DNA of 64,000 nucleotides from an uncultured Gammaproteobacteria bacterium (lineage in GTDB: Bacteria; Patescibacteriota; Microgenomatia; Daviesbacterales; UBA10151). Below the pieces are notes generated by a model. The model did no database searches and was not told the DNA's origin. It saw nothing but the letters and a program-made list of their open reading frames with translations. The stretch spans positions 759-64,758 of the forward strand of contig CAZYBP010000001.1 in assembly GCA_964645555.1 (NCBI GenBank). The letters are read 5' to 3'. Positions 17,215-58,944 of the stretch are shown here, one piece after another (within the stretch, counting starts at the first letter, position 1; every line of letters begins with the position of its first letter). Made by a program: the position numbers and the translations under genes.

Positions 17215-17232
17215 ATAAGGTTGATTATACTT

Positions 17233-34344: not shown

Positions 34345-34379
34345 AAATGGTATTATACATTAACAATAGAGGATATAAT

Positions 34380-36716: not shown

Positions 36717-36732
36717 TGATAGTATATATAAA

Positions 36733-38151
36733 ATGAAAACTTATCAATTTGATGTAGTTATAGTTGGATCAGGACCTGCAGGAGTCCATGCTGCATACCC
36801 TTTAATTAAGGCGGGATTAAAAGTTGCTATTATTGACGGTGGTCTGGATAGCAAAAAGCAAGATAAGAAACTTAGCGATTTTTTAGATGTTCATTTCAGA
36901 GAAACAAGCAACGCGTACGATCTGATCAAACAAAGCAGTTATGTATTCAATAAAACCTACCAACTCCTAAAAATAAACAGTAATATCGAAATCATTCAAA
37001 GCTTAGCAAAAGGAGGATTGTCGCAACAATGGCATGGTATCAGTGATTTTTTCTCAAATAAGGAATTAGAAAGAATTGGACTACCATCAAACGAGATACA
37101 AGCTGAATATAAAGAGATAGCTAAACTTATAAAACTTAAATTGGAAGGAAATCTGGACTACCATGCTAAGGCACTTTTAAAAACTGCAGAGAGTAAGCCT
37201 AATCTTAAAGAGAAACTATACCGGGTCCCGCTCGCCTTTCCTTACCGAACCAGTTCTGATATTGAATATTTCAAAAAATTTAAAAACTTTACATATATCC
37301 CCAATCAATTAGTGTTTACAGTAAAGGATATTAAAACTTGTGTGAAAATTGAAAGCCGATCAATTAATAAACAATCTACACTACAAACTAAAGCAGGATA
37401 TGTAATTTTGGCAGCCGGCTCAATTAACACTACCAGAATATTACTAAGAAGCTTAAACCTATTTAACTACAAAACCACATTTTTAACTAAAGCTCATTAT
37501 ATTACCGCCTGTATGCATCCAAGGACTTTCTTACTCCGATCATCTGAAAAATACTTAAAAAAATCAGGATTAGGGCAACTTGTCATCGCTGATAAAAAAA
37601 TAGGTAAAGGAGTCGGTGCTTTTTTTATACAACTATATAGATTTAATCCGCTGGTGATACATAAAGTATTAAAGCATATTCCTTTACCCAAAATAATGGC
37701 ATTACCTCTAATGTCAATTTTTGCTCCCTTTTTAATGATAGCTGACATAAGATTTGCAGCTTCTGAATCGAAAAAGAGATTCTGTAGATTATTAAAAGAT
37801 GCCGATAAAAATGATGTTTTAGAAATTTCATTCCAAGAATCTTTAAAAGAAATGAAAAATCATGAAAGTGAGTTTGTCAAAATTTCCCGTCAGTTAAATT
37901 CCCTCGGGTTATTCCCTCTTAAGACGGTTAAGGACTACACCACCTCCCATTATGCCGGAGGGGTACCTTATATGAAAAATCCGGGTAAAATATCAGTTAA
38001 TTTAAACGGCAGGCTACACCAGGCAAACAGAATTTATGTTGCTGACTCTGCAAGTTGGCGGGCACTACCGGCTAAAGCACCAACCTTGACAATAATGGCC
38101 AACGCTGCCAGAATTGGTAAAAAAGTTTTAGCAAAATTAGCGTTACACTGA
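36733..38151 (+). CDS. FAD-dependent oxidoreductase (GMC-like)
   Basis: FDVVIVGSGPAGV Rossmann FAD motif at the N-terminus. C-terminal YVADSASWRALPAKAPTLTIMANAARIG resembles the GMC C-terminal signature. Confidence 0.5.
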   Translation: MKTYQFDVVIVGSGPAGVHAAYPLIKAGLKVAIIDGGLDSKKQDKKLSDFLDVHFRETSNAYDLIKQSSYVFNKTYQLLKINSNIEIIQSLAKGGLSQQWHGISDFFSNKELERIGLPSNEIQAEYKEIAKLIKLKLEGNLDYHAKALLKTAESKPNLKEKLYRVPLAFPYRTSSDIEYFKKFKNFTYIPNQLVFTVKDIKTCVKIESRSINKQSTLQTKAGYVILAAGSINTTRILLRSLNLFNYKTTFLTKAHYITACMHPRTFLLRSSEKYLKKSGLGQLVIADKKIGKGVGAFFIQLYRFNPLVIHKVLKHIPLPKIMALPLMSIFAPFLMIADIRFAASESKKRFCRLLKDADKNDVLEISFQESLKEMKNHESEFVKISRQLNSLGLFPLKTVKDYTTSHYAGGVPYMKNPGKISVNLNGRLHQANRIYVADSASWRALPAKAPTLTIMANAARIGKKVLAKLALH

Positions 38152-43820: not shown

Positions 43821-44525
43821 ATGATTAAATTGGCGCCATCAATTAGTATAATAATACCCACCTATAATGAAGCAAGTAATATCGCCAAGATACTAAAGCG
43901 GACGAAAAAATTAGCTGATATTTACTCAATAGAAATTATAGTAGTTGACGGAGGCTCGAAAGACGGAACACCCGATATAGCAAAAAAAATAGGAGTCAAT
44001 AAACTAATTAAGCTTAAGCAAAGACGGGGAAAAGGAATTGATTTTTGGGAAGGAGTACAAGCTGCAAAAGGCGATTATGTAATCCAAATAGATGCTGATA
44101 TGCAATTTGATCCCCAGCAAATACCTTTATTTATAAAAGCATTTAATAAAGGAGCAGACGTAGTAATAGCCAGGAGGGAAAATTATAAAGAATCTCCTTT
44201 TTGGAGAACGATAGGAAATAAATCACTGTCACTTCTTACATCAATAGTTATAATGTATCGAATTCATGATGTTTTGGCAGGCTTTAAAGGGGCAAGGAGA
44301 GAAGTTATGCTTTCCTTAAAGCTAGAAGAGAAAGGTTTTATGTACGAGTCTGAGCTGGTTATTAAAACAATTAGAATGGGCTATAAATTAGCTCAAATTC
44401 CTGTCCGGTATCATAGGAGGGTGCACGAGAATTCAAAAGTTAATTTAATAAAAGACGGATTAGGATATCTCCGGTCAATCCTTTACTTTGGATTTATTAT
44501 TCCACCGCCACCCAAGCTATCTTAA
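43821..44525 (+). CDS. Glycosyltransferase family 2 (DPM1-like)
   Basis: ISIIIPTYNEASNI...VVDGGSKDGT. Confidence 0.75.
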   Translation: MIKLAPSISIIIPTYNEASNIAKILKRTKKLADIYSIEIIVVDGGSKDGTPDIAKKIGVNKLIKLKQRRGKGIDFWEGVQAAKGDYVIQIDADMQFDPQQIPLFIKAFNKGADVVIARRENYKESPFWRTIGNKSLSLLTSIVIMYRIHDVLAGFKGARREVMLSLKLEEKGFMYESELVIKTIRMGYKLAQIPVRYHRRVHENSKVNLIKDGLGYLRSILYFGFIIPPPPKLS

Positions 44526-44528
44526 ACT

Positions 44529-45242
44529 ATGACAAACATCAAACAAGGTCTTTCTCTTATCATCCCGGTCTTCAATGAGGAAAAAACAATAGAGTTAATA
44601 ATTAAAAGGTGTCACAGTCTACCTCTCGCAAAACAATTAATTGTCGTAAATGACGGATCAAAAGACAAAACTAAATCAGTTTTAGGTAAAATAAGCAAAA
44701 AGTATCCGTCAGTTACCATAATCCACCATCAAACAAATCTTGGTAAAGGAATGGCCATAAAAACAGGACTCAGTCAGGCATTGGGTAAATATGTTTTGGT
44801 TCAGGATGCAGATTTAGAATATTACCCGGAAGAAATTGTTAGATTATATGAAAAAGCCGAAGGAGCGTCGGATGGTATTGTTTTTGGCAATAGATCCGCC
44901 AATAAACAAAAGGGTTATATTCTAGCCCAACTTGGAAATTGGTATTTAAATTTACTCTTTTTTTCGCTTTTTGGATTGCAGTTGCAGGATAGTTATACAT
45001 GTTATAAATTAATACCTAGAAAAATCTGGCAGAGAATCAATTTACAAAGTAATGGCTTTGAAATTGATGCTGAACTGGTTTCTAAGCTCGGTAGAGAAGG
45101 TTATAAAATAATAGAGGTTCCCATCTCCTACCATCCTAGAAAATATTCAGAAGGCAAAAAGATAAATTGGATTGATGTAATTTGGGCAACAAAAGTTGCC
45201 TTTAAAATACGGTTTTTCACCAAGAAGGATTTGTATGAATAG
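44529..45242 (+). CDS. Glycosyltransferase family 2 (DPM1-like)
   Basis: LSLIIPVFNEEKTI...VVNDGSKDKT. Paralogous to the gene at 1..717. Confidence 0.75.
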   Translation: MTNIKQGLSLIIPVFNEEKTIELIIKRCHSLPLAKQLIVVNDGSKDKTKSVLGKISKKYPSVTIIHHQTNLGKGMAIKTGLSQALGKYVLVQDADLEYYPEEIVRLYEKAEGASDGIVFGNRSANKQKGYILAQLGNWYLNLLFFSLFGLQLQDSYTCYKLIPRKIWQRINLQSNGFEIDAELVSKLGREGYKIIEVPISYHPRKYSEGKKINWIDVIWATKVAFKIRFFTKKDLYE

Positions 45243-46380
45243 TTACAGTAAATACACAAAAGGCTTTATCAAATCATATAATGACCCCAATCTGAAAGTA
45301 TTGGAACTAGAAGAAGGAAAAGATGATTTCATAAAATTTTTTAAAAAACTTCATAAAAAATCCAAACGCAAAACAAGAATTGCCCTAATATCAATTAATT
45401 CATTATGGAAACTGATAATTTATATCGCCAGAGTATTAAAGTTAACAACTCTCAAAGTTTCTTATACCTGGATTTCACTCAATCAACTAGAACATATCGC
45501 TACTATTTCTAACTTTAAAGTTTTAGAAAGGGGTTATCGGGTAATCATGCCTAAAGATATACCTCTTGTATCAAACTTCATAAACAAATTATCTGTAAAC
45601 CTTCCCATTTTAAGAAGACTCGGTCTTATTCAATATATAATACTTACTCCTGATAAAATTACTAAACCTTCTCCTTTATCCTGCTCCATTATAGTACCGT
45701 GCTTTAATGAGGAAGATAATGTTGAAAATTGTATAAAAAGATGTCCCAAGATCGGCAAAGGAACAGAAATTATAATTGTTGATGACGGATCAACAGATAA
45801 CACATTAGAAAAGGCCAAAAAAATGGCCAAAAAAAATCCCTTTGTCAAAATCATTTCCTATAAACCAAACCGTGGTAAAGCTTATGCAGTAGAAAAAGGA
45901 TTCAATGCAGCAAAGGGAGAAATCATTATGATTTGGGACGCTGATCGAACAGTACCGGAATCGGAATTACATTTATTTTATGACGTATTAGCCGGAAACA
46001 AAGCAGATTTTGCAAACGGCACAAGACTGATTTATCCGATGGAAAATCAGGCTATGAAATGGTTAAATTTATTTGGTAATAAGATTTGCGGTACGGTATT
46101 TAGTTGGATACTTAGTACACCTATCTCCGATACCTTATGCGGGACAAAAGCTTTGTTTAAAAAAGACTACAAAAAAATCAAAATGGGTAATGAACCGTGG
46201 GGGGATTTTGATCTTTTATTCGGAGCTTCTAAACTAAACCTGAGAATACTTGAAATACCAGTACATTACCGCAAAAGAGTTGCCGGGGAATCTAAAATGA
46301 AAATATTCAAACACGGCCTGGTTTTATCTAAGATGGCTATTATCGGAACGTTAAGATTAAAATTCAATTATAAAAACTAG
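45235..46380 (+). CDS. Glycosyltransferase family 2 with about 150-aa N-terminal extension of unknown function
   Basis: The GT2 core starts at CSIIVPCFNEEDNV...IIVDDGSTDNT. The ATG at 45235 overlaps the upstream stop (ATGAATAG). Confidence 0.65.
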   Translation: MNSYSKYTKGFIKSYNDPNLKVLELEEGKDDFIKFFKKLHKKSKRKTRIALISINSLWKLIIYIARVLKLTTLKVSYTWISLNQLEHIATISNFKVLERGYRVIMPKDIPLVSNFINKLSVNLPILRRLGLIQYIILTPDKITKPSPLSCSIIVPCFNEEDNVENCIKRCPKIGKGTEIIIVDDGSTDNTLEKAKKMAKKNPFVKIISYKPNRGKAYAVEKGFNAAKGEIIMIWDADRTVPESELHLFYDVLAGNKADFANGTRLIYPMENQAMKWLNLFGNKICGTVFSWILSTPISDTLCGTKALFKKDYKKIKMGNEPWGDFDLLFGASKLNLRILEIPVHYRKRVAGESKMKIFKHGLVLSKMAIIGTLRLKFNYKN

Positions 46381-47633
46381 ATAATTTTAGGTTCAGGGAT
46401 GGGAATAATAAATTTACCTCCCCCCTCTCTAAACCACTTTTCTTTCTCCATAATATTTTGTGCATAATTCCATGCTGTAATTACAATATAGTCCGGTGTA
46501 TTACTTTTTAAAATTTCCGGTTTGACAATCAGGATATGATTACCCGGCGTAAACTTTCCTTGCTTGGAAGGGGCACTATCAGTTATATAATCAATCACCT
46601 TAGGACCAATATTGCAATATTGTAGTAAAGTCGTTGCTTTTGCCGATGCTCCATACGCTGCAATTTTTTTACCTTTTTTCTTTAACTCCCCAAGCATCTC
46701 GGTTAATTTCTTTTTTACAAGCGGAGGCCTTTGGGCAAATTTTCTATATGTTGACAATTGATCAAGACCTAATTTTTTTTCGTTTTTCAAAAACTTACTA
46801 ACAGCTTTACCTACTGGTAATGGGGCAAGTGCGTGGGATGCAAAAACCATAATCCCCCCTCCATGAGTATCAGTATGAATAATATCAATTATTTTCATTG
46901 AATGCATATTTAATAAATAGGCTAACGGCCTAACTGCATAAAAACAAATATGTTCATGATAGGTATTATCAAATTCATTATGTGTTAATAAATCTGCCAA
47001 ATACTGTACTTCAAAAACAAAAATACCCTTATCATCCAATAAATCTTTTACACCTTCGAAAATATCATGTAAAACATCCGTATGGGCGAGGGTATTATTT
47101 GATGTAATAATTCCAGCCTTACCGTATTTCTTTATAAGATTTGGTACTTTATCTTTACCAAAAAAATCGGCAATAGTTTCGATACCTTCCTTATTTGCAA
47201 TTTTGGCGATATTTTTTGCCGGGTCTATTCCTAAAACTCTGGCTCCTAATCTTTTAAACGGCTTGAGTAAAACCCCGTCATTGCTTCCTATATCAACAAC
47301 GAGTTTCCTTGATTGATCCGGAAAGCGGCTGAAAACTTCTTTGGCATATTCCTCAAAGTGTTTGACAAGCATCGGTGAGGTTGAAGAAAAATAGGCATAA
47401 TTACTAAAAATGACCGACCTGTCTACTATATGTAAAAGCTGGGCTAACTTACAGTTTCTGCAAAAATAAACTTCAAGAGGGGCTTTAAATTCTTTTTGTC
47501 TAAGTTGCTTTCCAGTCAGATAAGAATTAGCCGGAGCTGCTTTGCCAAGCGATAAATAACAAGTTAATTTCTTCTCTCCGCAGATAAGACACACATTACT
47601 TTTTTTGTATATTTTTTTTATAGATAAAGTCAT
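46377..47633 (-). CDS. NDP-hexose C-methyltransferase (TylCIII/NovU/EvaC family)
   Basis: N-terminal C-x2-C...C-x2-C zinc ribbon, the DIGSNDG motif, about 418 aa with a C-terminal domain, as in sugar C3/C5-methyltransferases. Confidence 0.75.
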   Translation of the reverse strand: MTLSIKKIYKKSNVCLICGEKKLTCYLSLGKAAPANSYLTGKQLRQKEFKAPLEVYFCRNCKLAQLLHIVDRSVIFSNYAYFSSTSPMLVKHFEEYAKEVFSRFPDQSRKLVVDIGSNDGVLLKPFKRLGARVLGIDPAKNIAKIANKEGIETIADFFGKDKVPNLIKKYGKAGIITSNNTLAHTDVLHDIFEGVKDLLDDKGIFVFEVQYLADLLTHNEFDNTYHEHICFYAVRPLAYLLNMHSMKIIDIIHTDTHGGGIMVFASHALAPLPVGKAVSKFLKNEKKLGLDQLSTYRKFAQRPPLVKKKLTEMLGELKKKGKKIAAYGASAKATTLLQYCNIGPKVIDYITDSAPSKQGKFTPGNHILIVKPEILKSNTPDYIVITAWNYAQNIMEKEKWFREGGGKFIIPIPEPKII

Positions 47634-47637
47634 AGTG

Positions 47638-48615
47638 TCAAAACCTTATTGGAGTCTTTTTAATTATAGACTGCTGGGCTAAATCAAGTATTTTACTCAC
47701 CAGTAATGCCTGATTTATATCCGTTTGGTCTTTTTCTCCTTTAATAACTTGAAGAAAGTTTAGTACTTCCGCCCCTAAAGGTAAATCATCGCTGTATGCA
47801 GGGTAACTTATTTTAGGTTCTTTTTGTCTAAATTCACCCTTTAAAAACTCAGGCCCCATATCTTTGAAGTAGGTTAACTTTTTTTCTGCTAAATTATTAT
47901 AGATTATTGTATCCTTCGTACCTACCACAACCAATTCCCTTTTTTTTACAGCAGATAACCAACTCACTTTAATAAATGCAACTGTTCCGTTTGGAAAAAC
48001 CAAGCGGATAAAAGCCATATCATATAATTTACTGTTTGGATACAAACTGCTTACGGCCCAAGCTGTTACTTCCTCAGGTTTTAGTTTTAAGATTTTTAAT
48101 ATCATTGAAACTCCGTGAGGTCCCCATTCCCAGATAACAGACATATCAGAGCGGAACACTCCATTATTTAATCCTTCAAAGCTTATGTAGCGGATCTCAC
48201 CAATGCTGTTAGTGTATTCCTGCAGTTTAATAAAGGGGGGATTATATAAATCTATATATCCTACTAGTACAGCAGGCTTTTTCTTCAGATTGTCATAAAT
48301 ATCTTTTAACTTTAGAGCTTCTTGATAATTTACAGTAAGCGGTTTCTCTACCAGCAGGTTGAAACCATTTTTAAGTAACTCGGATGAAATCTTAAAATGG
48401 GTAGAGCCGGGAGTTGCTATAATCACACCATCGATATCGCTGTATTTAAATAAGCTTTTGTAATTTGTTAGTTTAATATAATCACTGTCAAATGAGTTAA
48501 GTGTCTTTATGCTTGTCGCACAAATATACTTTAGTTTGCAACCCGGAAGAGACTTTATTGTATTTACGTAATTTCTTCCCCACTGACCTGCACCTATCAA
48601 AGCAAGTATCTTCAT
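47638..48615 (-). CDS. Gfo/Idh/MocA-family NAD(P)-dependent oxidoreductase
   Basis: MKILALIGAGQWGRNY N-terminal Rossmann. 325 aa, sits in a sugar-modification operon. Confidence 0.6.
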   Translation of the reverse strand: MKILALIGAGQWGRNYVNTIKSLPGCKLKYICATSIKTLNSFDSDYIKLTNYKSLFKYSDIDGVIIATPGSTHFKISSELLKNGFNLLVEKPLTVNYQEALKLKDIYDNLKKKPAVLVGYIDLYNPPFIKLQEYTNSIGEIRYISFEGLNNGVFRSDMSVIWEWGPHGVSMILKILKLKPEEVTAWAVSSLYPNSKLYDMAFIRLVFPNGTVAFIKVSWLSAVKKRELVVVGTKDTIIYNNLAEKKLTYFKDMGPEFLKGEFRQKEPKISYPAYSDDLPLGAEVLNFLQVIKGEKDQTDINQALLVSKILDLAQQSIIKKTPIRF

Positions 48616-48616
48616 T

Positions 48617-49681
48617 TTAACTGAATTTATATTCCGATTTAAACCAGGTTATAGATTTTTTAAGTCCCGTTTCTAAACCAACTTTTGGATAGTAACCGAC
48701 ATCATTTTTTATTTTAGTTAAATCCGGACAACGTCTGGTAGGCTCACCTGCCGGATAATGTCTTGGGTAACTTTTACGTCTTGGTTTGGCGCCATTTTTC
48801 AGTAAATTGCAAATCGTAGATGCCAGCTCAAACATACTTACTTCCGGCTGATTATTACCAACATTGTAGACCTCCCCATTTTTACCCAAAAGCAAAACTT
48901 TAAAAATAGCAGTAAGGGCATCCGTGATATAACAAAAAGTCCGTGTTTGAATTCCCTTATCATGAACGGGTAAACTTCTACCCCTCAAACCATGATATAA
49001 AAATGTGGGGATAACACGGTAGTCTGTGTGTCTCATGCCCGGGCCATAAATATTGAAAGGTCTAACAATTTTAATAGGTACTTTATAAATGTCATAATAA
49101 ATCATACATAGAGTTTCTGCCAATCTTTTTGATTCATCATAACAAGCCCTAGGTCCAACACTGGAAACACGTCCGGCGTATGTTTCCGGGGTAGGAACGG
49201 CTGTACCTTCGGGATCTCCGTATATTTCACTTGATGAAAAAAATAAAAAACTTTCTACTTTATTAAGGCGTGCCAATTCCAAAAGGTTTTTGGCTCCTAA
49301 AATTGCACTTTCGATTGTTTCCAACGGGTACTTTTTATAATAAAAGGGTGATGCCAGTCCCGCAGCATGGATTATATAATCAATTTTTTCATCAAGATTA
49401 AGTGGCAACCTGACATCTGAATGTAAAAATTTAAATCTTTTATCTTTTATATCGATGATAAAATTTTTTCTTGAGCCGGTTATATAGTTATCTAAAGAAA
49501 TAACTTTGCATTTTTCTTTTAAGACGTTTTTATTGAGAAGATAAAGTACTGCGTTTAAATAAGTACCTATAAAACCTGATCCTCCGGAAATTAGAATAGT
49601 CTTTCCTTCCAGTAATTTGGCCTCTTTTTTTATATCATCCAATACTACCTTTAAATCATTTACAACTGATCTATTGCTCAT
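48617..49681 (-). CDS. UDP-glucuronate decarboxylase / NDP-sugar 4,6-dehydratase family (extended SDR)
   Basis: ILISGGSGFIGTYL and CYDESKRLAE...RPFNIYGPGM resemble the UXS/ArnA-type YDEGKR block. Confidence 0.6.
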   Translation of the reverse strand: MSNRSVVNDLKVVLDDIKKEAKLLEGKTILISGGSGFIGTYLNAVLYLLNKNVLKEKCKVISLDNYITGSRKNFIIDIKDKRFKFLHSDVRLPLNLDEKIDYIIHAAGLASPFYYKKYPLETIESAILGAKNLLELARLNKVESFLFFSSSEIYGDPEGTAVPTPETYAGRVSSVGPRACYDESKRLAETLCMIYYDIYKVPIKIVRPFNIYGPGMRHTDYRVIPTFLYHGLRGRSLPVHDKGIQTRTFCYITDALTAIFKVLLLGKNGEVYNVGNNQPEVSMFELASTICNLLKNGAKPRRKSYPRHYPAGEPTRRCPDLTKIKNDVGYYPKVGLETGLKKSITWFKSEYKFS

Positions 49682-50067
49682 ACCAATTTCAATCTGACAA
49701 GATCCCCTTCATATTTGTCTTGCTCCCTCGGCTCTGTGGTAAATGCCAAAAACACACTGTCTTCTAAAAATTCCATAGCGTGCGCGACCATCGGACGTGA
49801 TAAAACCAAATCCCCCGGTTTTAAGATAACCGATTCTCTCTTTGAATTTTTCTTACTCATATCTTTTTCGCTATAGCGGAATTTACCTGATAAACAATAC
49901 ACAAAATGGGCATCTGTTTTATGATAGTGGTTACCACGGGTACTACCTTTTTTGCTGACAATATATAACACAGCCCTGAGGGGATATTTGTCTTGATCTA
50001 TTAACCGGGTAATGTAACCTCGCTCGTCGGTAAATTCAGGTTTATTTTTTATAACTTTAATTGGCAT
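49678..50067 (-). CDS. Cupin sugar isomerase (FdtA/WxcM-like NDP-4-keto-6-deoxyhexose 3,4-ketoisomerase) candidate
   Basis: 129 aa with ERGYI...RGNHYHK...H motifs typical of WxcM-like cupins. Confidence 0.5.
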   Translation of the reverse strand: MPIKVIKNKPEFTDERGYITRLIDQDKYPLRAVLYIVSKKGSTRGNHYHKTDAHFVYCLSGKFRYSEKDMSKKNSKRESVILKPGDLVLSRPMVAHAMEFLEDSVFLAFTTEPREQDKYEGDLVRLKLV

Positions 50068-50138
50068 CTGAAGTGAAGTTAGTATAGCTTTAGCCTAAAT
50101 TGGTGTCAAGAATTACTTTTTTGATATACTCAACTTTC

Positions 50139-51215
50139 ATGCTTAACAAAAATACATATGATGCGGTAGTAATAGGCGGGGGGTTTTATGGCTGCATTAT
50201 AGCTCTTTTTTTAAAAAGAAAATTTAAAAGGGTACTTCTGATAGAAAAAGGCTCTGACTTGCTACTGAAAGCTTCTTATAATAATCAAGCAAGAATTCAT
50301 AACGGCTATCATTACCCCAGAAGCCATATGACTGCTTTAAGATCACACATAAACTATTCCCGATTTATCTCGGATTTTAAAGATGCAGCTTGTGATAAAT
50401 ACTTAATGATTTATGCCATCGCTGCCAATAATTCAAAAGTTACAGCCGGCCAGTATGTTAAATTTTGTAAATCAATCGGAATCCCCCTTTCGCCTGCAGC
50501 TGATAACATCCGTAAGCTTTTTAACGACAGACTCATTGAGGAAGTATTTGTAGTTGATGAGGCAGTGTTTAATGCCGGAAAGATACGGGATATTCTCAAG
50601 AAAAAACTCTTCTCAGCCGGAGTAAAGGTTATCTATCGAAAAGAAGTTACTAAAGTTACATCAGCAGGACAATTATTAACTTTATATCTTAAAAATGATA
50701 TCACTATAAATAGTAAAAGCGTTTATAACTGCACTTATTCGGCAATTAATCAGATTTTAACTAATTCTTCTTTACCTAAATTACCTTTAAAACACGAGCT
50801 GACAGAAATGCCTCTTATTCAAATGCCCGGAAGATTAAAAAATATGGGTATTACGGTTATGGACGGACCCTTTTTTTCTATAATGCCTTTCCCCGATCTA
50901 AAGATGCATACAATTCACCATGTCCGCTATACACCACACTATTCTACTTTAGATAACTTAGATAACCCCACAAAACCAAACTCTGAATACACTTTTATGA
51001 TTAAAGATGCAATACGTTATATTCCCGAGTTAAGCAAAGTCAAGTATAAAACATCTATTTATGAAACAAAATCTGTCCTTATTGCAGATGAAATAACTGA
51101 CGCCAGACCTATTTTATTTAAAAAAGATTATGTAATAAAAAATTTCCATGTAATTTTGGGTGCAAAGATTGACAATATCTATGACGTTGTTGAAGAAATT
51201 GATAAAAACCTTTAA
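50139..51215 (+). CDS. FAD/NAD(P)-binding oxidoreductase
   Basis: YDAVVIGGGFYGC dinucleotide-binding motif. Start moved to the ATG at 50139 so the Rossmann motif is N-terminal. Confidence 0.45.
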   Translation: MLNKNTYDAVVIGGGFYGCIIALFLKRKFKRVLLIEKGSDLLLKASYNNQARIHNGYHYPRSHMTALRSHINYSRFISDFKDAACDKYLMIYAIAANNSKVTAGQYVKFCKSIGIPLSPAADNIRKLFNDRLIEEVFVVDEAVFNAGKIRDILKKKLFSAGVKVIYRKEVTKVTSAGQLLTLYLKNDITINSKSVYNCTYSAINQILTNSSLPKLPLKHELTEMPLIQMPGRLKNMGITVMDGPFFSIMPFPDLKMHTIHHVRYTPHYSTLDNLDNPTKPNSEYTFMIKDAIRYIPELSKVKYKTSIYETKSVLIADEITDARPILFKKDYVIKNFHVILGAKIDNIYDVVEEIDKNL

Positions 51216-52000
51216 GGATTATATGTACCAAATGCAGTTTTTATAACAGTTACTAGAAAATCCAGATGTCCTGTTACACTTTTAATCTTTGTCGGTATCT
51301 CATGTTTTGGGTACGCTCTTGAAACTGGAAGCTCTGTTACTTTAAACCCCAATTGAGCTGCTTTAACAGGTAAATAAAAAAGCAATTCATATTTAATGAA
51401 TAAATCTCTAAACAGTTTAACTTTTGGACTAAGTAAAACTCTTTTACTGTAAGCACGGAAACCATTGGTTATGTCTGAAAACCAATATCCGGAAGCTATA
51501 CTGAGAAAAGGAGAAATTAAAAACCTTATTCCTAACCACCTAAGAGGCGGTGTATTTATCGCCTTGCCCCCTTTCATAAAACGGGAGCCCTGGATATAAT
51601 CAAATCCCCGGTCCAATTGTTTAATGAATGCTGGTATAGCCTCCACCCCATCTTTACCATTACCATCTATAGTAATAATACCCTCATATCCCTCACGTAA
51701 AGCATATGAAAAACCCATTCTTAATTGTGTACTTTGTCTGCCCGGTGATGTCTTTGTTAATAATGTCCTCACCGCCATTTCTTTCAAGAAGGATTTATCT
51801 AAAGAATCATCAGTACTGCCACCATCTAAAATAAGAATATCTATTAATTTAGCATATTTCTTAGTTTTAAATAATTGTTTCCTGATTCTTTCACCTTCAT
51901 TAATAACAGGTATGCAAAGACAATATTTTGTCTTTCTTTTCCTAAACTCCTCAACAGTAAACTTAGGCAATTGCCAATTTTGATCGTTTAGATTACTCAT
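51212..52000 (-). CDS. Glycosyltransferase family 2
   Basis: CLCIPVINEGERI...ILDGGSTDDS. Confidence 0.65.
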   Translation of the reverse strand: MSNLNDQNWQLPKFTVEEFRKRKTKYCLCIPVINEGERIRKQLFKTKKYAKLIDILILDGGSTDDSLDKSFLKEMAVRTLLTKTSPGRQSTQLRMGFSYALREGYEGIITIDGNGKDGVEAIPAFIKQLDRGFDYIQGSRFMKGGKAINTPPLRWLGIRFLISPFLSIASGYWFSDITNGFRAYSKRVLLSPKVKLFRDLFIKYELLFYLPVKAAQLGFKVTELPVSRAYPKHEIPTKIKSVTGHLDFLVTVIKTAFGTYNP

Positions 52001-52998
52001 ACCACATTAAGCTTATCTTTATTTAAATTAATAACTGATTTGTCCATCTCATCAGCAATAAAATATAACGGTTCATTTCGGGATTCATTTAAGATTCTTA
52101 TTATATATTCTGAGATTAATGTCAGAAGTGAGAATAAAAGAAAAAACATACCTCCAAGCACACTAGCCAAAGTTACCCATCCTTTTGGTGCAAAGTAAGT
52201 TTTGAAAAAAACAGCTGATATGACAACAAAAATAACGTACATCAAAAATACCATACTGATGATCATCCCGGCTGTTGCTAATATTCTGATCGGCTTGAAA
52301 GAGTTTGAGATAACAATATCTGTTACTATCAGTAATATCTCAAAAAAATTTGGAGTCTTAACTTTGATATTGCCCATTAAAGGCTTATATTCCATAATCA
52401 ATCTTCTAAAACCTATTAGATGAGAGATATAACTAAGATTCCTGCTTTTTCTTCTAATTCTGGTTATCGAATTGATAGCCTTTCTATTAACTCCCAGAAG
52501 GTGAATCGGTTCATAACTAAATCCGTGAGTTGACAATTTTTCAATGGTTGATAAAAATAGTCCGCTAAGAGACCATTTCGCTATGGTTCTTTCAACGGAT
52601 TTGGCAATTACAATGTCGTACTTTTCCAAAAGCGGATCTATTAGATAAAGTATTGCACTGGGTGACACTACTTTAATGTCTAAAAGTACAGCATAATCTC
52701 CAATACAATTATCTAATCCCGCTGAAAAAGCTATATCGGTACTTGTTGCTTTTGATAATCTAATAATCTTAATGTGGGGAATTTGACGGTGTAAAGCTCG
52801 GACTTTACTCACTGTATCATCCTTGGAATTATTATCCACTATTAATATTTCGTAATTTTGATAGTTATTTGACAGAACTTCGTTTATTTTCTTGAGTATC
52901 TTTCCAACCACCTGACCATCATTATCAGTTACAATAATGGTAGTAATGATTATTTCTCTGGTAGACGCTATCTCTTTTGGGCTTTTCTTGTTTTTCAT
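51997..52998 (-). CDS. Polyprenyl-phosphate glycosyltransferase (GtrB/ArnC-like GT2 with two C-terminal TM helices)
   Basis: GT2 core (ILIVDNNSKDDT) plus a C-terminal pair of hydrophobic helices (…IISMVFLMYVIFVV… / …GGMFFLLFSLLTLI…), the architecture of lipid-phosphate sugar synthases that feed GT-C enzymes. Confidence 0.7.
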   Translation of the reverse strand: MKNKKSPKEIASTREIIITTIIVTDNDGQVVGKILKKINEVLSNNYQNYEILIVDNNSKDDTVSKVRALHRQIPHIKIIRLSKATSTDIAFSAGLDNCIGDYAVLLDIKVVSPSAILYLIDPLLEKYDIVIAKSVERTIAKWSLSGLFLSTIEKLSTHGFSYEPIHLLGVNRKAINSITRIRRKSRNLSYISHLIGFRRLIMEYKPLMGNIKVKTPNFFEILLIVTDIVISNSFKPIRILATAGMIISMVFLMYVIFVVISAVFFKTYFAPKGWVTLASVLGGMFFLLFSLLTLISEYIIRILNESRNEPLYFIADEMDKSVINLNKDKLNVV

Positions 52999-53136: not shown

Positions 53137-55452
53137 ATGTTTTTTTTAATCGCTCTTTTTCTCATTATCATATTATCAGGATTTGTGATTGTCAGAACAA
53201 TCACTAAAGAGACTGATTCATTTATATTACTGCCTGTTTCTCAAATAGTTGGAGCAATTTTTTATATCTTTTTGCTCAATCTAGTTTCCAAGATTTTTCC
53301 CGGGCTAGCAGGCATCAGTATATCTACCATCGGATTAATATTTCTGACGGCTCTTGTTTTTCTAAAATATAAATCCGGTTGGATTAAATTAAGCCCCTTA
53401 TCCTCAAATAATAAATTTTTGGTCCTTCTGATAATTTCTGTAATTTTAATCTTATCAATCCTGAGAATGTTTACTGTACTCCCGGCTGCGGATTCCTCTA
53501 TGCAGTGGGCATATGCAGCAAGCTTTGCCCGGGGAAATCAACCGTTGATGACTTCTTGGCAACCTGATTTGACTCCGAATTATCATCTTGGGGCATATTT
53601 TCTGGAAGGGGCATTATATAGGCTGACAGGAGCAACTTTTCTATTAATTCACACAATATTTAATATTTATTTGCTTCTGGCAGGTAGTTTAATGGTGATA
53701 TTTTTGCTGTGGAAAAAAGGGGGAAACTATACAAAAATTTGGGCAATTGTCTCTGTGATAATATTTTTCATCTCATACGGGGTGATTATTGTAGCTTTAC
53801 CTAATTTTTCCTCTCAACCACAACTGGTTGAAATTTATAAATTGAAGGATTTTGTTTTGGCTAAAGGAGACGCAGGCGCATCTTTGATTGACTTAAATTC
53901 CCTAAGCTATTTACCCGCCAGATCACTAAGTATTGGTTTTGCTTTAACACTTTTATATTTTATGAGCACTCCTTTTAAAAAGAATTTGCTTAAAATTATT
54001 TCCCTTTCAATACTTTTGTCTATATCCGCCCTGGTTGAAGAATCACTGTTTTTACCGCTGATGCTGACTGTCGTTTCTATTTTTATATTGTCGCTTTTTT
54101 CATTCATTCCTAAACTAGAGTATATCGCCAAAATTAGGAAACTGCTGTTTGTCGTCATAATGCTGACAACTGTTATTGTTATTTTCCAGGGAGGTTTTGT
54201 CACCGATAATATGTTCGGCGCCAAAAGAGAGTCGCAAGCTTACAGGATTGTTAACCCGTTGGCTGGTGAGGATGCCTTCATCAGTACTAATATATTCAAA
54301 GATATTTATTTTAAATCCAATCTATGGTTTCCTTTTTCCGGATGGTTTGTACCCTCGCCGCTCTGGTTTATACTGATTTTGGTAATTTATTCGTATATTA
54401 AAAAGGAACCCTTCACCGGTTCAACAGCCCTATTTGCCGCCGTATGTTTTACATTGTTTTTGACTGCTCAATATAAATATTGTACCCAGTGCAATATAAG
54501 ACTGCATAGTTTCGGATACATAGCCTTAGGATTTGGCATTTTTTATCTGATTATCGACCTGCTCAAAAAAACCTCCAAAAAGAAAAACCTAATAAGTTTA
54601 GTCCTATTTATAGTTTTCATACTGATACCAACTATTAGTTCTGATCTTTATTATCAAGATAAAAATATTAATGAGGGTATTCGAGAAAAAAAACCAAGCA
54701 TTATACTTTCCCCGCGGAATTCCATTCCGGATGAGATTGGTATATGGGCCAGAGATAATATTCCCCCCAACGAAAGAATCATTGTGCTTGATGCCGGCTT
54801 CCCCTCTCCCGGAGGCTCTCTTAATTTTCAATATCACGGGTTATATACTATCTTAGGTCCTCAATATGTCAGGGTTAACCGGCAAGAACCGGGTATGGAG
54901 TTTTTTGATCTTGCACTAACTCTAAATCCGTCTTTACTCACCAAAACGAAAACCCGTTATGTTTATATAGAATCGTCATCGCCTGCCTACAAACAACTTC
55001 CTGATTTCAGAAAACAGGAATTAAATAATCCTAATTTCTTTCAGATTCTGAAACGGCTTGAAAGTAATGGTGTCTTTTATGAAATATTACAAGTACTGCC
55101 TCAATATTTAAATGAAAGTATAGGCGGCAAGGAGATAAATGAAGGCAGGTTGGACCAATTAAAAACACTCGTACCAAAAGAGTCCTCAGTTTATCTAAGT
55201 GATTATGGAGACACTCCAGAACTCCTCTCATTCTGGTACAGAATGGCAACAACTTTTAGCCTCGGAGAACACAATCTGGTAATGAATCTTTCACAAACAA
55301 CCTATCAGGTGATCGAAACGGAATTTACCAGAAGACAGGTGCAAGAAGGAGAGGTTTACGATTATTATGTCTTGGGCCCGGGCAAAAAATTGGATTTTAA
55401 CGCGGAACTTATTTGGTCTAATATGTTTGCCTCAGCCTGGAAAAGAATATAA
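53137..55452 (+). CDS. Family-C polytopic membrane protein with C-terminal soluble domain (GT-C-like candidate)
   Basis: AADSSMQWAYAASFARGN...WQPDLTPNYHLGAYFLEGAL. About 50% identical to 34380..36716 along its length. Confidence 0.6.
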   Translation: MFFLIALFLIIILSGFVIVRTITKETDSFILLPVSQIVGAIFYIFLLNLVSKIFPGLAGISISTIGLIFLTALVFLKYKSGWIKLSPLSSNNKFLVLLIISVILILSILRMFTVLPAADSSMQWAYAASFARGNQPLMTSWQPDLTPNYHLGAYFLEGALYRLTGATFLLIHTIFNIYLLLAGSLMVIFLLWKKGGNYTKIWAIVSVIIFFISYGVIIVALPNFSSQPQLVEIYKLKDFVLAKGDAGASLIDLNSLSYLPARSLSIGFALTLLYFMSTPFKKNLLKIISLSILLSISALVEESLFLPLMLTVVSIFILSLFSFIPKLEYIAKIRKLLFVVIMLTTVIVIFQGGFVTDNMFGAKRESQAYRIVNPLAGEDAFISTNIFKDIYFKSNLWFPFSGWFVPSPLWFILILVIYSYIKKEPFTGSTALFAAVCFTLFLTAQYKYCTQCNIRLHSFGYIALGFGIFYLIIDLLKKTSKKKNLISLVLFIVFILIPTISSDLYYQDKNINEGIREKKPSIILSPRNSIPDEIGIWARDNIPPNERIIVLDAGFPSPGGSLNFQYHGLYTILGPQYVRVNRQEPGMEFFDLALTLNPSLLTKTKTRYVYIESSSPAYKQLPDFRKQELNNPNFFQILKRLESNGVFYEILQVLPQYLNESIGGKEINEGRLDQLKTLVPKESSVYLSDYGDTPELLSFWYRMATTFSLGEHNLVMNLSQTTYQVIETEFTRRQVQEGEVYDYYVLGPGKKLDFNAELIWSNMFASAWKRI

Positions 55453-58317: not shown

Positions 58318-58944
58318 ATGTATAATATCGTCATGATTAAAGCTATAATATTTGATTTAGATGGTGTGCTAATTGACGCAACAGAATGGCATTATGAAGC
58401 ATTAAATGATGCACTGAAAATTTTTGGTTATGAATTAGGCCTAGAAGAACACTTAACTACCTATAATGGGTTACCCACAGCCGAAAAGCTCAAGCTACTA
58501 TCGGAGAAAAAAGGGCTTCCTTTGGGTTTACATGAAATTATCAAAGTAATGAAAAGAAAATTAACAGATGAAAGAGTCAGACAACTTTGCAGTCCCAGTC
58601 ACGAAAAACAAATCATGCTCACAAATTTGAAACATAAAGGGTATAAACTTGCCTGTTGTTCCAATGCACAAAAATATTCGGTCATGAATATGTTAGAGTC
58701 TGCAAAGATTGATCATTTTTTTAGTGTTATCATGGGAAATGATGAAGGTTATAAACCTAAACCAGCGCCGGATATATATTTGGCAACATTTAAAGAGCTT
58801 AAAGTTCCTCCAAACGAAGTTATAATTGTTGAGGATGCTTCACACGGCATAGAAGCTGCCAAAAGAAGTGGGGCGAAGGTAATTGCAGTACGTGGTTTCG
58901 AAGATGTAAACTTATCATTGTTTTTGGATTTAAACTTAGTATAG
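58318..58944 (+). CDS. HAD-superfamily hydrolase (beta-phosphoglucomutase/phosphatase subfamily)
   Basis: IIFDLDGVLIDAT motif I (DxDG) and C-terminal EDASHGIEAAKRSG (motif IV region). Confidence 0.7.
   Translation: MYNIVMIKAIIFDLDGVLIDATEWHYEALNDALKIFGYELGLEEHLTTYNGLPTAEKLKLLSEKKGLPLGLHEIIKVMKRKLTDERVRQLCSPSHEKQIMLTNLKHKGYKLACCSNAQKYSVMNMLESAKIDHFFSVIMGNDEGYKPKPAPDIYLATFKELKVPPNEVIIVEDASHGIEAAKRSGAKVIAVRGFEDVNLSLFLDLNLV

What the first reader, a model, noticed from the sequence alone, without database searches (positions are those of the whole stretch)
46377..50067. Operon for a branched, C-methylated deoxy/keto-sugar: cupin isomerase, UXS-like SDR, Gfo/Idh/MocA oxidoreductase and TylCIII-type C-methyltransferase
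Four co-directional, tightly packed genes on the minus strand: a 129-aa FdtA/WxcM-like cupin, a UXS/4,6-dehydratase-family SDR, a Gfo/Idh/MocA oxidoreductase and a 418-aa zinc-ribbon C-methyltransferase (DIGSNDG). C-methyltransferases of this family are best known from antibiotic deoxysugar pathways (mycarose, noviose, vancosamine). Their presence in a surface-glycan locus, together with the TylF-type O-MT (26960..27808) and the NodU/NovN-type carbamoyltransferase (19010..20710), is the same enzyme trio that decorates noviose. It predicts a highly unusual C-methyl, O-methyl, O-carbamoyl sugar on this organism's surface.
Basis: partly seen in the sequence, partly recalled or inferred. Interest (0 to 1): 0.65.

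Follow-up and report, generated by a model that had tools for sequence, protein, structure and literature searches.

The report
Conserved module for a C-methyl pentose
Four tightly packed genes in an uncultured Daviesbacteria (CPR) genome form a module conserved across many uncultured bacteria that most likely turns UDP-glucuronic acid into a methyl-branched five-carbon sugar for the cell surface, a route to branched sugars that I could not find described.

Summary
Four co-directional, translationally coupled minus-strand genes at 46377..50067 encode a 129-aa cupin, a 354-aa SDR, a 325-aa Gfo/Idh/MocA oxidoreductase and a 418-aa TylCIII/MtmC/TcaB9-type sugar C-methyltransferase with its motifs intact.

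The SDR is a UDP-glucuronate decarboxylase type (S-S-E triad, YxxxK, Asn, conserved Arg; closest solved structure human UXS1), not a 4,6-dehydratase. The likely substrate is therefore a UDP-4-keto-pentose, not a 6-deoxyhexose.

The cupin is nearest the FdtA/QdtA 3,4-ketoisomerases by sequence and modelled fold, by a narrow margin over epimerases.

The four genes recur together in more than 12 independent loci (32-61% GC; CPR, Rhodospirillales MAGs), in at least three gene orders and with C-methyltransferases from two distinct clades. That argues for one functional unit.

The proposed noviose-like trio is not supported. TylF and the carbamoyltransferase lie 18-27 kb away and do not travel with the module. 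ArnC/AglJ-like polyprenyl-phosphate GT2 genes do.

Best reading: a UDP-linked C-methyl pentose pathway, a new combination of known enzyme families. The methylated carbon and the product's stereochemistry remain unknown.

The parts
50081..50109 (-). Promoter-like site (TTGACA, 17 nt, TATACT) 13 nt upstream of the cupin ATG
   Evidence: It is the best-scoring sigma-70-like match in 46000..50400 (11 of 12), and the sequence was read. The number of such sites in the region is not above the shuffle expectation, so this is only positional support.
49678..50067 (-). 129-aa cupin acting on an NDP-keto-sugar; nearest to FdtA/QdtA 3,4-ketoisomerases
48617..49681 (-). 354-aa extended SDR of the UDP-glucuronate decarboxylase (UXS/ArnA) type
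   Evidence: PDB best hit is human UXS1 at 193 bits, against 106 bits for the best 4,6-dehydratase. The alignment to hUXS1 shows SSSE/STSE, YDESK/YDEGK, FNIYGP/FNTFGP and QTRTF/QTRAF. These motifs are invariant in 14 module orthologs. The criteria come from PMC10338323.
47638..48615 (-). 325-aa Gfo/Idh/MocA oxidoreductase of an uncharacterised subfamily; proposed terminal sugar ketoreductase
   Evidence: Pfam N- and C-terminal domains. E90-K91-P92 and H167 are invariant. The profile matches PDB 3C1A (Magnetospirillum putative oxidoreductase, function unknown) at 202 bits, against at most 98 bits for characterised enzymes. The best NCBIfam hit is UDP-GlcNAc 3-dehydrogenase at 99 bits, far below its 450 cutoff. 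It lies directly downstream of the UXS-like gene in every locus that carries both.
46377..47633 (-). 418-aa TylCIII/MtmC/TcaB9-type NDP-sugar C-methyltransferase
   Evidence: Three-domain Pfam architecture. PDB hits: MtmC 300 bits, KijD1 252, TcaB9 238, all full length. It is 36.7% identical to MtmC without gaps. It carries CxxC...CxxC, DIGSNDG, AH and YHEH.
43821..46380 (+). Three consecutive GT2 genes (234, 237 and 394 aa) of the polyprenyl-phosphate sugar synthase type; candidates for loading the product onto a lipid carrier. The last one converges on the C-MT gene and overlaps its stop by 4 nt.
   Evidence: Best NCBIfam matches are AglJ, dolichyl-P-hexose transferase, ArnC and PpgS, all below equivalog cutoffs. 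Homologs lie next to the module in 8 of 14 loci. The role is inferred.
51212..52998 (-). Two further GT2 genes (262 and 333 aa); the second has a GtrB/ArnC-like full-length match and C-terminal TM segments
   Evidence: They are conserved beside the module in L005 at 74-76% identity. The role is inferred.
53137..55452 (+). 771-aa protein with about 13 hydrophobic TM-like segments and no family hit; candidate GT-C-type transferase using the lipid-linked sugar
   Evidence: No Pfam or NCBIfam hit. 13 hydrophobic segments. Conserved beside the module in L005 at 67%. The role is speculative.
50100..51215 (+). Divergently transcribed DAO-family FAD oxidoreductase; accessory neighbour of unknown role
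   Evidence: Pfam DAO 67 bits. It keeps the same position in L005 (76%), and in L007 a 59% homolog overlaps the end of a Gfo homolog that has no other module genes nearby. It is absent from the other module loci.

Best explanation
The four genes are one biosynthetic module that converts a UDP-uronic acid, most likely UDP-glucuronic acid, into a UDP-linked C-methyl-branched pentose.

Proposed steps:
(1) The UXS/ArnA-type SDR oxidises C-4 and decarboxylates C-6, releasing UDP-4-keto-xylose. The family chemistry is established. Release of the keto form here is inferred.
(2) The FdtA-like cupin moves or re-sets the carbonyl region through an enediol(ate). The favoured reading is 3,4-ketoisomerisation to a UDP-3-keto-pentose. 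C-3 epimerisation is the alternative.
(3) The TylCIII-type methyltransferase uses SAM to methylate the carbon next to the keto group. That is C-3 if it acts on the 4-keto sugar, or C-4 or C-2 if it acts after isomerisation. The position is not determinable here.
(4) The Gfo/Idh/MocA enzyme reduces the remaining keto group with NAD(P)H. Its role is inferred by elimination and by the invariant UXS-Gfo adjacency.

The product is then probably loaded onto polyprenyl phosphate by one of the flanking ArnC/AglJ-like GT2 enzymes and transferred outside the membrane by a polytopic GT-C-like protein. This resembles the Arn (L-Ara4N) pathway, and both of these steps are inferred.
For: Enzyme identities:
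- The SDR is the decarboxylase type and not a 4,6-dehydratase. hUXS1 scores 193 bits against 106 bits for the best dehydratase. S-S-E, YxxxK, N and R align with hUXS1 and are invariant in 14 orthologs. The criteria are from PMC10338323.
- The C-MT is a full-length relative of MtmC, KijD1 and TcaB9 with all motifs.
- The cupin is nearest the NDP-sugar 3,4-ketoisomerases, with the His-x-His dyad conserved.
- The Gfo protein has an intact EKP motif.

Functional linkage:
- Cupin + C-MT + UXS-like + Gfo occur together in L005, L006, L008/9, L011-L015, L019, L027 and L092, at 32-61% GC.
- At least three gene orders are seen: cupin-SDR-Gfo-CMT, cupin-CMT-SDR-Gfo and cupin-Gfo-GT17-CMT.
- The module uses C-MTs of two clades only 40-45% identical to each other. 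The window's clade is seen both between cupin and SDR (L092) and after Gfo (window, L005, L091).
- L028 has cupin-UXS-Gfo without a C-MT. That fits a core 'keto-pentose rearrange and reduce' pathway onto which methylation is added.

Redox book-keeping: one oxidising SDR plus one other oxidoreductase is exactly what a release-keto, tailor, reduce pathway needs.

Neighbours: ArnC/AglJ-like GT2 genes recur in 8 of 14 loci, and the window holds about ten proteins with 8-13 TM-like segments.

Precedent: UDP-4-keto-pentose released by CalS9, AtmS9, ArnA and EvdS6 serves as a tailoring substrate (PMC10338323).
Against: - No biochemical data exist for any of the four proteins or for close homologs. 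Everything about order, regiochemistry and product is inference.
- Sequence cannot tell whether the SDR releases the 4-keto sugar or finishes to UDP-xylose. The EvdS6 paper says structures do not explain this either.
- No clear UDP-glucose 6-dehydrogenase is in the window. The only NDP-sugar dehydrogenase is WecC-like (UDP-ManNAc DH 351 bits against UDP-Glc DH 145 bits), and none lies next to the module elsewhere.
- The SDR is far below the NCBIfam equivalog cutoffs for U4kpxs (81 against 294) and ArnA (64 against 777).
- All characterised C-MTs of this family use dTDP-hexose substrates. A UDP-pentose would be new.
- Very close relatives of the window's C-MT (78-80% identical) sit beside a different 309-aa SDR with no module genes nearby (L001, L002). 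The C-MT clade is therefore not tied exclusively to this module.
- The cupin's margin over epimerases is small, and a broader profile (A2) gave no discrimination.
Confidence: 0.55

Rival explanations
1. One reading: the operon makes a C-methylated 6-deoxy (or keto) hexose of the mycarose/noviose/virenose kind from a dTDP- or GDP-hexose. The SDR would act as a 4,6-dehydratase. The distant TylF O-MT and the carbamoyltransferase would then decorate the same sugar, as in noviose.
For: The C-MT's characterised relatives all act on dTDP-4-keto-6-deoxyhexoses. FdtA and QdtA also act on dTDP-4-keto-6-deoxyglucose. The SDR's best NCBIfam hit by score is the dTDP-glucose 4,6-dehydratase model (137 bits, cutoff 365). 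Nucleotidyltransferases and a HAD phosphatase lie at 58318..60470. TylF and the carbamoyltransferase are in the same 64-kb glycan locus, and a TylF homolog lies about 3 kb from the module in L008/L009.
Against: The SDR lacks the dehydratase Asp (S-S-E, not T-D-E), has the decarboxylase Arg, and scores almost twice as high to UXS1 as to any dehydratase structure. No nucleotidyltransferase is part of the module in any locus. TylF is near the module in 1 of 14 loci and the carbamoyltransferase in 0 of 14. In the window they are 18-27 kb away, separated by other sugar-nucleotide pathways and many glycosyltransferases.
Confidence: 0.12
2. The same module logic applies, but the SDR decarboxylates a 2-acetamido uronic acid such as UDP-GlcNAcA or UDP-ManNAcA, as UXNAcS of Bacillus cereus does (from my own knowledge). 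The product would be a C-methyl-branched 2-acetamido-pentose.
For: The only NDP-sugar dehydrogenase in the window is WecC-like and lies near a UDP-GlcNAc 2-epimerase. L092 also has a UDP-GlcNAc 2-epimerase about 2 kb from the module. The module SDR is a diverged UXS paralog with an invariant Ser in place of the usual Thr of the triad.
Against: WecB/WecC-like genes are absent from the flanks of most module loci. In the window they are 15 kb away, in their own gene group with another SDR. No direct evidence of substrate specificity exists either way.
Confidence: 0.13
3. The cupin-UXS-Gfo trio makes an unbranched pentose isomer (for example a ribo-, lyxo- or arabino-configured UDP-pentose). The adjacent C-methyltransferase would belong to a different pathway and be co-transcribed only by accident of gene order in this lineage.
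For: L028 has the trio without any C-MT. The window's C-MT clade also occurs with a different SDR and no module genes (L001, L002) or alone (L003, L004). In the window the C-MT is at the operon's 3' end rather than in the commonest position.
Against: A C-MT is present in nearly all module loci, from two different clades and in different positions, including a window-type C-MT in the canonical internal position in L092. Repeated independent association is hard to explain without a shared pathway. There is only a 4-nt gap to the Gfo gene.
Confidence: 0.1
4. The C-MT methylates C-5 of the UDP-4-keto-pentose, as NovU does at C-5. This rebuilds a 4-keto-6-deoxyhexose, which the FdtA-like cupin and a C-3 ketoreductase then process. 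The route would give a 6-deoxyhexose without a 4,6-dehydratase.
For: It would give the cupin its canonical substrate type, a 4-keto-6-deoxyhexose, and the Gfo enzyme a KijD10-like C-3 ketoreductase role. The NovU and KijD10 details are from my own knowledge. All four enzymes get one step each.
Against: It is purely a chemical possibility. It is metabolically roundabout compared with a 4,6-dehydratase. No sequence evidence distinguishes C-5 from C-3 methyltransferases here, because no NovU-type sequence was available to compare.
Confidence: 0.05

Closest known systems
TylCIII / EryBIII / MtmC / TcaB9 / KijD1 NDP-hexose C-3-methyltransferase pathways (mycarose, tetronitrose, kijanose), and the proposed virenose pathway of the Coxiella burnetii O-antigen (CBU_0691)
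   Same: The methyltransferase family and architecture are the same (Zn ribbon + SAM domain + C-terminal domain, YxEH motif), and so is the logic of methylating the carbon next to a sugar keto group and then reducing it. Virenose shows the family is already known in surface-glycan loci (PMC3539893).
   Different: Those pathways start from a 4,6-dehydratase product (a dTDP- or GDP-4-keto-6-deoxyhexose). Here the keto sugar is supplied by a UXS-type decarboxylase, implying a UDP-pentose. The reductase is Gfo/Idh/MocA rather than an SDR 4-ketoreductase.
UDP-4-keto-pentose tailoring pathways: ArnA/ArnB/ArnC/ArnT (L-Ara4N on lipid A), CalS9 and AtmS9 (4-aminopentoses), and EvdS6 (eurekanate and L-lyxose of everninomicin)
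   Same: A UXS/ArnA-type decarboxylase supplies a 4-keto-pentose that other enzymes then modify (PMC10338323). The flanking ArnC-like GT2 genes and polytopic membrane proteins suggest the same lipid-carrier delivery as in Arn.
   Different: Known tailoring of the keto-pentose is transamination or attachment of a two-carbon (acetyl) branch. SAM-dependent C-methylation of a decarboxylase-derived pentose is not among them. The paper calls a branched sugar that starts from a decarboxylase unique to eurekanate.
FdtA / QdtA / FdtD / WlaRA / HCAN_0198 NDP-sugar 3,4-ketoisomerases
   Different: Identity is only about 20-27%. The module cupins have additional invariant residues D52 and H54, so that four His (47, 49, 54, 96) occupy the classic cupin metal-ligand positions, where FdtA has Gln at the third. 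The CapF C-3-epimerase cupin and RmlC-type epimerases are almost as close structurally. The presumed substrate is a UDP-pentose rather than a dTDP-6-deoxyhexose.
PDB 3C1A, putative oxidoreductase of Magnetospirillum magnetotacticum MS-1 (structural genomics, no assigned function)
   Same: It is an ortholog-level match to the module's Gfo/Idh/MocA profile (202 bits, full length). Rhodospirillales MAGs carry the module (L027, L028).
   Different: Its function and gene neighbourhood are unknown to me and could not be retrieved with these tools.

Membership tests
TylCIII/MtmC/TcaB9-type NDP-sugar C-methyltransferase | N-terminal four-Cys zinc ribbon (Pfam Methyltransf_13) | tested here: met
   PF08421 scores 64.7 bits (cutoff 31.3). 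C15xxC18 and C58xxC61 are conserved in the window protein and all relatives.
TylCIII/MtmC/TcaB9-type NDP-sugar C-methyltransferase | Class I SAM-binding domain with a glycine-rich motif | tested here: met
   Methyltransf_23 scores 55 bits. DIGSNDG at residues 114-120 is essentially invariant.
TylCIII/MtmC/TcaB9-type NDP-sugar C-methyltransferase | C-terminal C-methyltransferase domain (Pfam Methyltransf_14) | tested here: met
   PF08484 scores 184 bits and covers 2-160 of 160 profile positions.
TylCIII/MtmC/TcaB9-type NDP-sugar C-methyltransferase | Active-site Tyr-x-Glu-His and upstream His (TcaB9 Y222/E224/H225 and H181; residue numbers are from my memory of the Holden-lab work) | tested here: met
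   YHEH at 225-228 aligns with MtmC YHEH and KijD1 YDEH. LAH at 182-184 aligns with MtmC FAH.
TylCIII/MtmC/TcaB9-type NDP-sugar C-methyltransferase | SAM-dependent C-methylation of an NDP-keto-sugar, including which carbon and which nucleotide | not testable with these tools
   This needs an enzyme assay and NMR.
UDP-glucuronate decarboxylase (UXS/ArnA/EvdS6-type extended SDR) | T/S-S-E triad, in contrast to the dehydratase T-D-E | tested here: met
   SSSE aligns with hUXS1 STSE and is invariant in 14 orthologs. The first residue is Ser rather than Thr. The criterion is from PMC10338323.
UDP-glucuronate decarboxylase (UXS/ArnA/EvdS6-type extended SDR) | GxxGxxG, YxxxK, the Asn needed for the reductive half-reaction, and the conserved Arg (ArnA R619) | tested here: met
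   GGSGFIG, YDESK, RPFN and QTR all align with the hUXS1 equivalents and are invariant. That this Arg is hUXS1 R277 is from my own memory.
UDP-glucuronate decarboxylase (UXS/ArnA/EvdS6-type extended SDR) | Passes a curated equivalog model (NCBIfam U4kpxs or ArnA) | tested here: not met
   81 bits against a cutoff of 294, and 64 bits against 777. It is a diverged paralog. The closest solved structure is still hUXS1 (193 bits).
UDP-glucuronate decarboxylase (UXS/ArnA/EvdS6-type extended SDR) | Decarboxylation of UDP-GlcA, and release of the 4-keto product versus UDP-xylose | not testable with these tools
   According to PMC10338323 this is not predictable from sequence or structure.
NDP-hexose 4,6-dehydratase (RmlB/Gmd type) | Catalytic Asp-Glu pair (T-D-E) | tested here: not met
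   Ser replaces the Asp in all 14 orthologs. Dehydratase structures score about half as high as UXS1.
FdtA/QdtA-type NDP-sugar 3,4-ketoisomerase | Small single-domain cupin with the catalytic His-x-His dyad | tested here: met
   It is 129 aa. H47-Y-H49 aligns with FdtA H49-A-H51 and is invariant. The H49N and H51N mutant entries score lower than wild type.
FdtA/QdtA-type NDP-sugar 3,4-ketoisomerase | Closer to ketoisomerases than to RmlC/CapF-type epimerases | tested here: inconclusive
FdtA/QdtA-type NDP-sugar 3,4-ketoisomerase | Catalyses the 4-keto to 3-keto shift | not testable with these tools
   This needs an assay. The extra invariant D52 and H54 hint at a metal site that FdtA lacks.
Gfo/Idh/MocA oxidoreductase | N-terminal Rossmann domain, EKP motif with the catalytic Lys, and C-terminal alpha/beta domain | tested here: met
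   PF01408 61 bits, PF22725 41 bits and PF02894 26 bits. E90, K91, P92 and H167 are invariant in 28 homologs.
Gfo/Idh/MocA oxidoreductase | Membership of a characterised subfamily (UDP-GlcNAc 3-dehydrogenase, inositol dehydrogenase, GFOR and so on) | tested here: not met
   The best NCBIfam hit is 99 bits against a cutoff of 450. Characterised PDB proteins score at most 98 bits, against 202 bits for the uncharacterised 3C1A.
Noviose-type decoration set (C-MT + TylF/NovP-type O-MT + NovN-type carbamoyltransferase acting on one sugar) | The three enzymes are genetically linked and travel together | tested here: not met
   In the window they are 18-27 kb from the module. Among 14 module loci a TylF homolog is nearby in 1 and a carbamoyltransferase in 0. 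Flanks in those loci were limited to 7-10 kb.
Noviose-type decoration set (C-MT + TylF/NovP-type O-MT + NovN-type carbamoyltransferase acting on one sugar) | All three modifications sit on the same sugar residue | not testable with these tools
   This needs glycan mass spectrometry and NMR.

The most novel reading that the evidence does not exclude
The module makes a UDP-activated C-methyl pentose, a sugar class I could not find reported in bacterial glycans. It would use a route in which a TylCIII-type methyltransferase acts on a decarboxylase-derived keto-pentose, possibly after 3,4-ketoisomerisation. That would mean methylation at C-4 or C-2, a new regiochemistry for this family. The sugar would then be delivered through polyprenyl phosphate to decorate the envelope of many CPR bacteria and some other uncultured lineages.
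Probability: 0.35. Interest if true: 0.65.

Novelty: new variant of a known kind. Interest (0 to 1): 0.5.

Why it matters
Branched-chain sugars are normally built on 4,6-dehydratase products. A conserved module that couples a UXS-type decarboxylase to a SAM-dependent C-methyltransferase would add a new entry point, pentose-based C-methyl branching, to nucleotide-sugar biochemistry, and it would extend the substrate range of the TylCIII family.

The module is widespread in Candidate Phyla Radiation genomes, whose cell-surface chemistry is almost entirely unknown. It therefore gives a concrete, cheaply testable prediction about what these uncultured cells display: four soluble enzymes and commercially available substrates are all that is needed. 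It also proposes a function for an uncharacterised Gfo/Idh/MocA subfamily that already has a crystal structure (3C1A).

Tried and rejected
- **Single-sequence genome scan.** A scan of the genome collection with the Gfo protein found nothing. The alignment-based rescan worked.
- **'One-off displacement' of the C-MT.** My first reading of the tree was that the window's C-MT had displaced the canonical one once. L092 showed a window-type C-MT in the canonical position, so I replaced that idea with 'two C-MT clades serve the module'.
- **Broad cupin profile.** I therefore used a subfamily alignment of database homologs.
- **Apiose/xylose synthase as the SDR's identity.** Rejected, because no UAXS structure appears among the 20 PDB matches at E<=1e-20, whereas UXS1 is at 8e-56.
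- **The 309-aa SDR at 31126..32055 as a second decarboxylase.** It has an SSSE-like motif, but its best match is a crystallised 'dTDP-glucose 4,6-dehydratase related protein' at 350 bits, so I left it as a side note.
- **Literature.** Searches for a C-MT acting on UDP-4-keto-pentose, or for C-methyl pentoses in bacterial polysaccharides, found nothing relevant. One query failed on syntax. The library covers open-access papers only, so absence is weak evidence.
- **Promoter and terminator scan.** Counts are at chance level. Only the position of the best promoter-like site is suggestive.

Full report
**Observation.** The cupin stop and SDR start overlap in ATGA. The SDR and Gfo genes are 1 nt apart, and the Gfo and C-MT genes 4 nt apart. 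The best sigma-70-like match of the region (TTGACA, 17 nt, TATACT) lies 13 nt upstream of the cupin ATG, although the number of such matches is no higher than in shuffled sequence. Exact matches in the protein database name the source as a Candidatus Daviesbacteria (CPR, Microgenomates) contig of 85,981 bp. The window as a whole is a very large glycan locus. It holds many GT2 and GT4 genes, AftD-like GT-C proteins, about ten proteins with 8-13 TM-like segments, a Wzx-type flippase, several SDRs, a WecB/WecC-like pair, an AsnB-like amidotransferase, several methyltransferases including TylF, a NodU-type carbamoyltransferase, and a HAD phosphatase with two nucleotidyltransferases.

**The methyltransferase.** It has the complete three-domain architecture: Methyltransf_13 zinc ribbon, SAM domain and Methyltransf_14 C-terminal domain. 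It aligns end to end, without gaps, to the crystallised sugar 3-C-methyltransferase MtmC (300 bits, 36.7% identity). KijD1 (252 bits) and TcaB9 (238 bits) follow. Both CxxC pairs, DIGSNDG, the AH motif and the YHEH motif are present.

**The SDR.** Human UDP-glucuronate decarboxylase is the best solved relative at 193 bits, against 106 bits for the best dTDP-glucose 4,6-dehydratase. The EvdS6 paper (PMC10338323) gives the distinguishing features: a T-S-E triad where dehydratases have T-D-E, YxxxK, an Asn needed for the reductive half-reaction, and an Arg equivalent to ArnA R619. In the window protein these appear as SSSE, YDESK, RPFN and QTR. All align to the hUXS1 equivalents and are invariant in 14 orthologs. 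The dehydratase Asp is absent. The protein is nevertheless a diverged paralog, well below the NCBIfam equivalog cutoffs for ArnA and for the bifunctional keto-pentose/xylose synthase. The same paper stresses that neither sequence nor structure predicts whether such an enzyme releases the 4-keto-pentose or completes the reaction to UDP-xylose.

**The oxidoreductase.** It has the Gfo/Idh/MocA domains and an invariant EKP motif but belongs to no characterised subfamily. Its best NCBIfam hit is UDP-GlcNAc 3-dehydrogenase at 99 bits against a cutoff of 450. A profile of 28 homologs matches the function-unknown structural-genomics protein 3C1A of Magnetospirillum magnetotacticum at 202 bits, while inositol dehydrogenase, GnnA and GFOR score 80-98 bits.

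**Conservation.** This is the strongest evidence that the four genes form a unit. Close C-MT homologs (77-80% identical) are sometimes found with a different 309-aa SDR (L001, L002), and more distant ones (53-56%) stand alone in L003 and L004. Starting instead from the rarer Gfo protein shows that cupin, C-MT, UXS-like SDR and Gfo occur together in L005, L006, L008/L009, L011-L015, L019, L027 and L092.
- These loci range from 32% to 61% GC. They are labelled Levyibacteriota, Andersenbacteria, Rhodospirillaceae and other MAGs.
- Gene order varies. It is cupin-CMT-SDR-Gfo in most, cupin-SDR-Gfo-CMT in the window, L005 and (as far as its truncated contig shows) L091, and cupin-Gfo-GT17-CMT in L010. 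The SDR-Gfo pair is always adjacent.
- The module's C-MTs fall into two clades only 40-45% identical to each other. The window's clade is found both at the 3' end (window, L005, L091) and in the internal canonical position (L092, where the C-MT is 77%, the SDR 81% and the cupin 73% identical to the window's). Recruiting a C-MT from two clades and in several positions argues that the pathway needs one.
- Variants are informative. L028 has cupin-SDR-Gfo without a C-MT. L017 and L023 have a C-MT-like protein that has lost the YHEH motif, and no cupin.

**Mechanism proposed.** The family chemistry of each enzyme is established knowledge. Their order and the product are my inference.
1. The SDR converts UDP-GlcA to UDP-4-keto-xylose.
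2. The cupin isomerises it to a 3-keto-pentose, or epimerises C-3.
3. The C-MT methylates the carbon alpha to the keto group.
4. The Gfo enzyme reduces the keto group.

This scheme gives each enzyme one step and balances the redox chemistry with exactly the two oxidoreductases present. If the cupin really is a ketoisomerase it must act before any C-3 methylation, because a methylated C-3 has no proton left to remove. Methylation would then fall on C-4 or C-2, a new regiochemistry for this family. If the C-MT acts directly on the 4-keto sugar, the branch is at C-3. These tools cannot decide between the two.

Downstream, ArnC/AglJ/PpgS-like GT2 genes flank the module on both sides in the window. 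Homologs adjoin it in 8 of 14 loci. PMT_2-family or unannotated polytopic proteins also lie nearby. This suggests delivery through a polyprenyl-phosphate carrier, as in the Arn pathway.

**Weak points.** There are no biochemical data. No UDP-glucose dehydrogenase is evident in the window (the only NDP-sugar dehydrogenase is WecC-like) or beside the module elsewhere, so the uronic-acid substrate could be a 2-acetamido sugar. The C-MT clade is also not exclusive to this module.

**The noviose analogy.** TylF (26960..27808) and the carbamoyltransferase (19010..20710) are real. They sit 18-27 kb from the module, beyond other sugar-nucleotide pathways. Among 14 module loci a TylF homolog is nearby in one (L008/L009) and a carbamoyltransferase in none. 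The organism's glycans may well be O-methylated and carbamoylated, but nothing ties those groups to the C-methyl sugar. A TylCIII-type enzyme in a surface-glycan locus is also not unprecedented, since Coxiella's virenose pathway was proposed on that basis (PMC3539893).

**Novelty and score.** Every enzyme belongs to a known family, so this is not a new kind of system. The combination is what is new: a UXS-type decarboxylase feeding a SAM-dependent C-methyltransferase, with an FdtA-like cupin and a Gfo-type reductase. I did not find it described. The EvdS6 paper states that starting a branched sugar from a pentose-generating decarboxylase was unique to eurekanate, which carries a two-carbon branch. 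I rate it a new variant of a known kind, with interest 0.5. It is a concrete and easily testable prediction about the surface chemistry of CPR bacteria and about the substrate range of an established enzyme family, but it is unproven and not paradigm-changing.

Noticed in passing
L017:7652-8830 and L023:7709-8887: In these two loci (Nomurabacteria and Saccharibacteria MAGs) the protein upstream of the UXS-like/Gfo pair is a 392-aa C-MT homolog. It has lost the catalytic YHEH motif (YLDR / YFDR) and the AH motif (TH), and no cupin gene was detected. It may be an inactivated or re-purposed methyltransferase.
   Followed up: partly
L028:8444-10891: A Rhodospirillales MAG carries cupin, UXS-like SDR and Gfo with no C-MT anywhere in the 20.9-kb locus. 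This is possibly the unmethylated version of the pathway, giving a pentose isomer.
   Followed up: partly
window 50100..51215 (+); L005:4401-5477; L007:7923-9011: A DAO-family FAD oxidoreductase is divergent from the module in the window and in L005. In L007 a 59% homolog overlaps the 3' end of a Gfo homolog that has no other module genes nearby. A Gfo-DAO partnership of unknown function may exist. The window ORF probably starts at the internal ATG near 50139 (358 aa, as in L005) rather than at the TTG at 50100.
   Followed up: partly
L008:7969-8790 and L009:5717-6538: An AP_endonuc_2 (xylose-isomerase-like TIM barrel) protein overlaps the end of the Gfo gene in this version of the module. Its best NCBIfam hits are 5-keto-L-gluconate epimerase and psicose 3-epimerase, so it may be an extra epimerisation step.
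   Followed up: partly
window 31126..32055 (-): A 309-aa SDR overlapping the WecC-like NDP-sugar dehydrogenase gene (29931..31178) matches the crystallised 'dTDP-glucose 4,6-dehydratase related protein' 8W3U/9AR1 at 350 bits, with UXS1 next at 94 bits. It carries an SSSE / YAISK / RLFN pattern. Together with a GT4 gene and the UDP-GlcNAc 2-epimerase gene (33253..34344) it looks like a separate uronic-acid-derived sugar pathway.
   Followed up: partly
window 3679..25316, 34347..36716 and 53137..55452: About ten large proteins (499-1140 aa) have 8-13 hydrophobic TM-like segments. Most have no Pfam hit, and two hit the AftD GT-C domain (22488..25316 and 27828..28793). This is an unusually dense set of probable lipid-linked-sugar glycosyltransferases for one locus.
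   Followed up: partly
L092 compared with the window: Within the module the Gfo enzyme is much less conserved than its partners. It is 47% identical where the SDR is 81%, the C-MT 77% and the cupin 73%. Different Gfo clades might set different stereochemistry at the reduced carbon and so diversify the sugar.
   Followed up: no
L001:5085-7260 and L002:5097-7272: C-MTs 78-80% identical to the window's overlap an upstream 309-aa SDR (SSISAYG and YGVSK, reductase/epimerase type). A nucleotidyltransferase and a HAD phosphatase lie a few kb away, and no cupin, UXS or Gfo gene was detected. The same C-MT clade therefore appears to serve a second, different pathway.
   Followed up: partly
window 34347..36716 and 36574..38151 (+): The listed ORFs overlap by 143 nt. 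The second, a GMC/FAD oxidoreductase-like protein whose FAD motif starts near residue 59, probably begins at a later start codon.
   Followed up: no
window 58318..61443: A HAD phosphatase, two sugar-phosphate nucleotidyltransferase-family genes and an inositol-monophosphatase-family gene lie together. They form a possible separate NDP-sugar activation cassette at the edge of the glycan locus.
   Followed up: no
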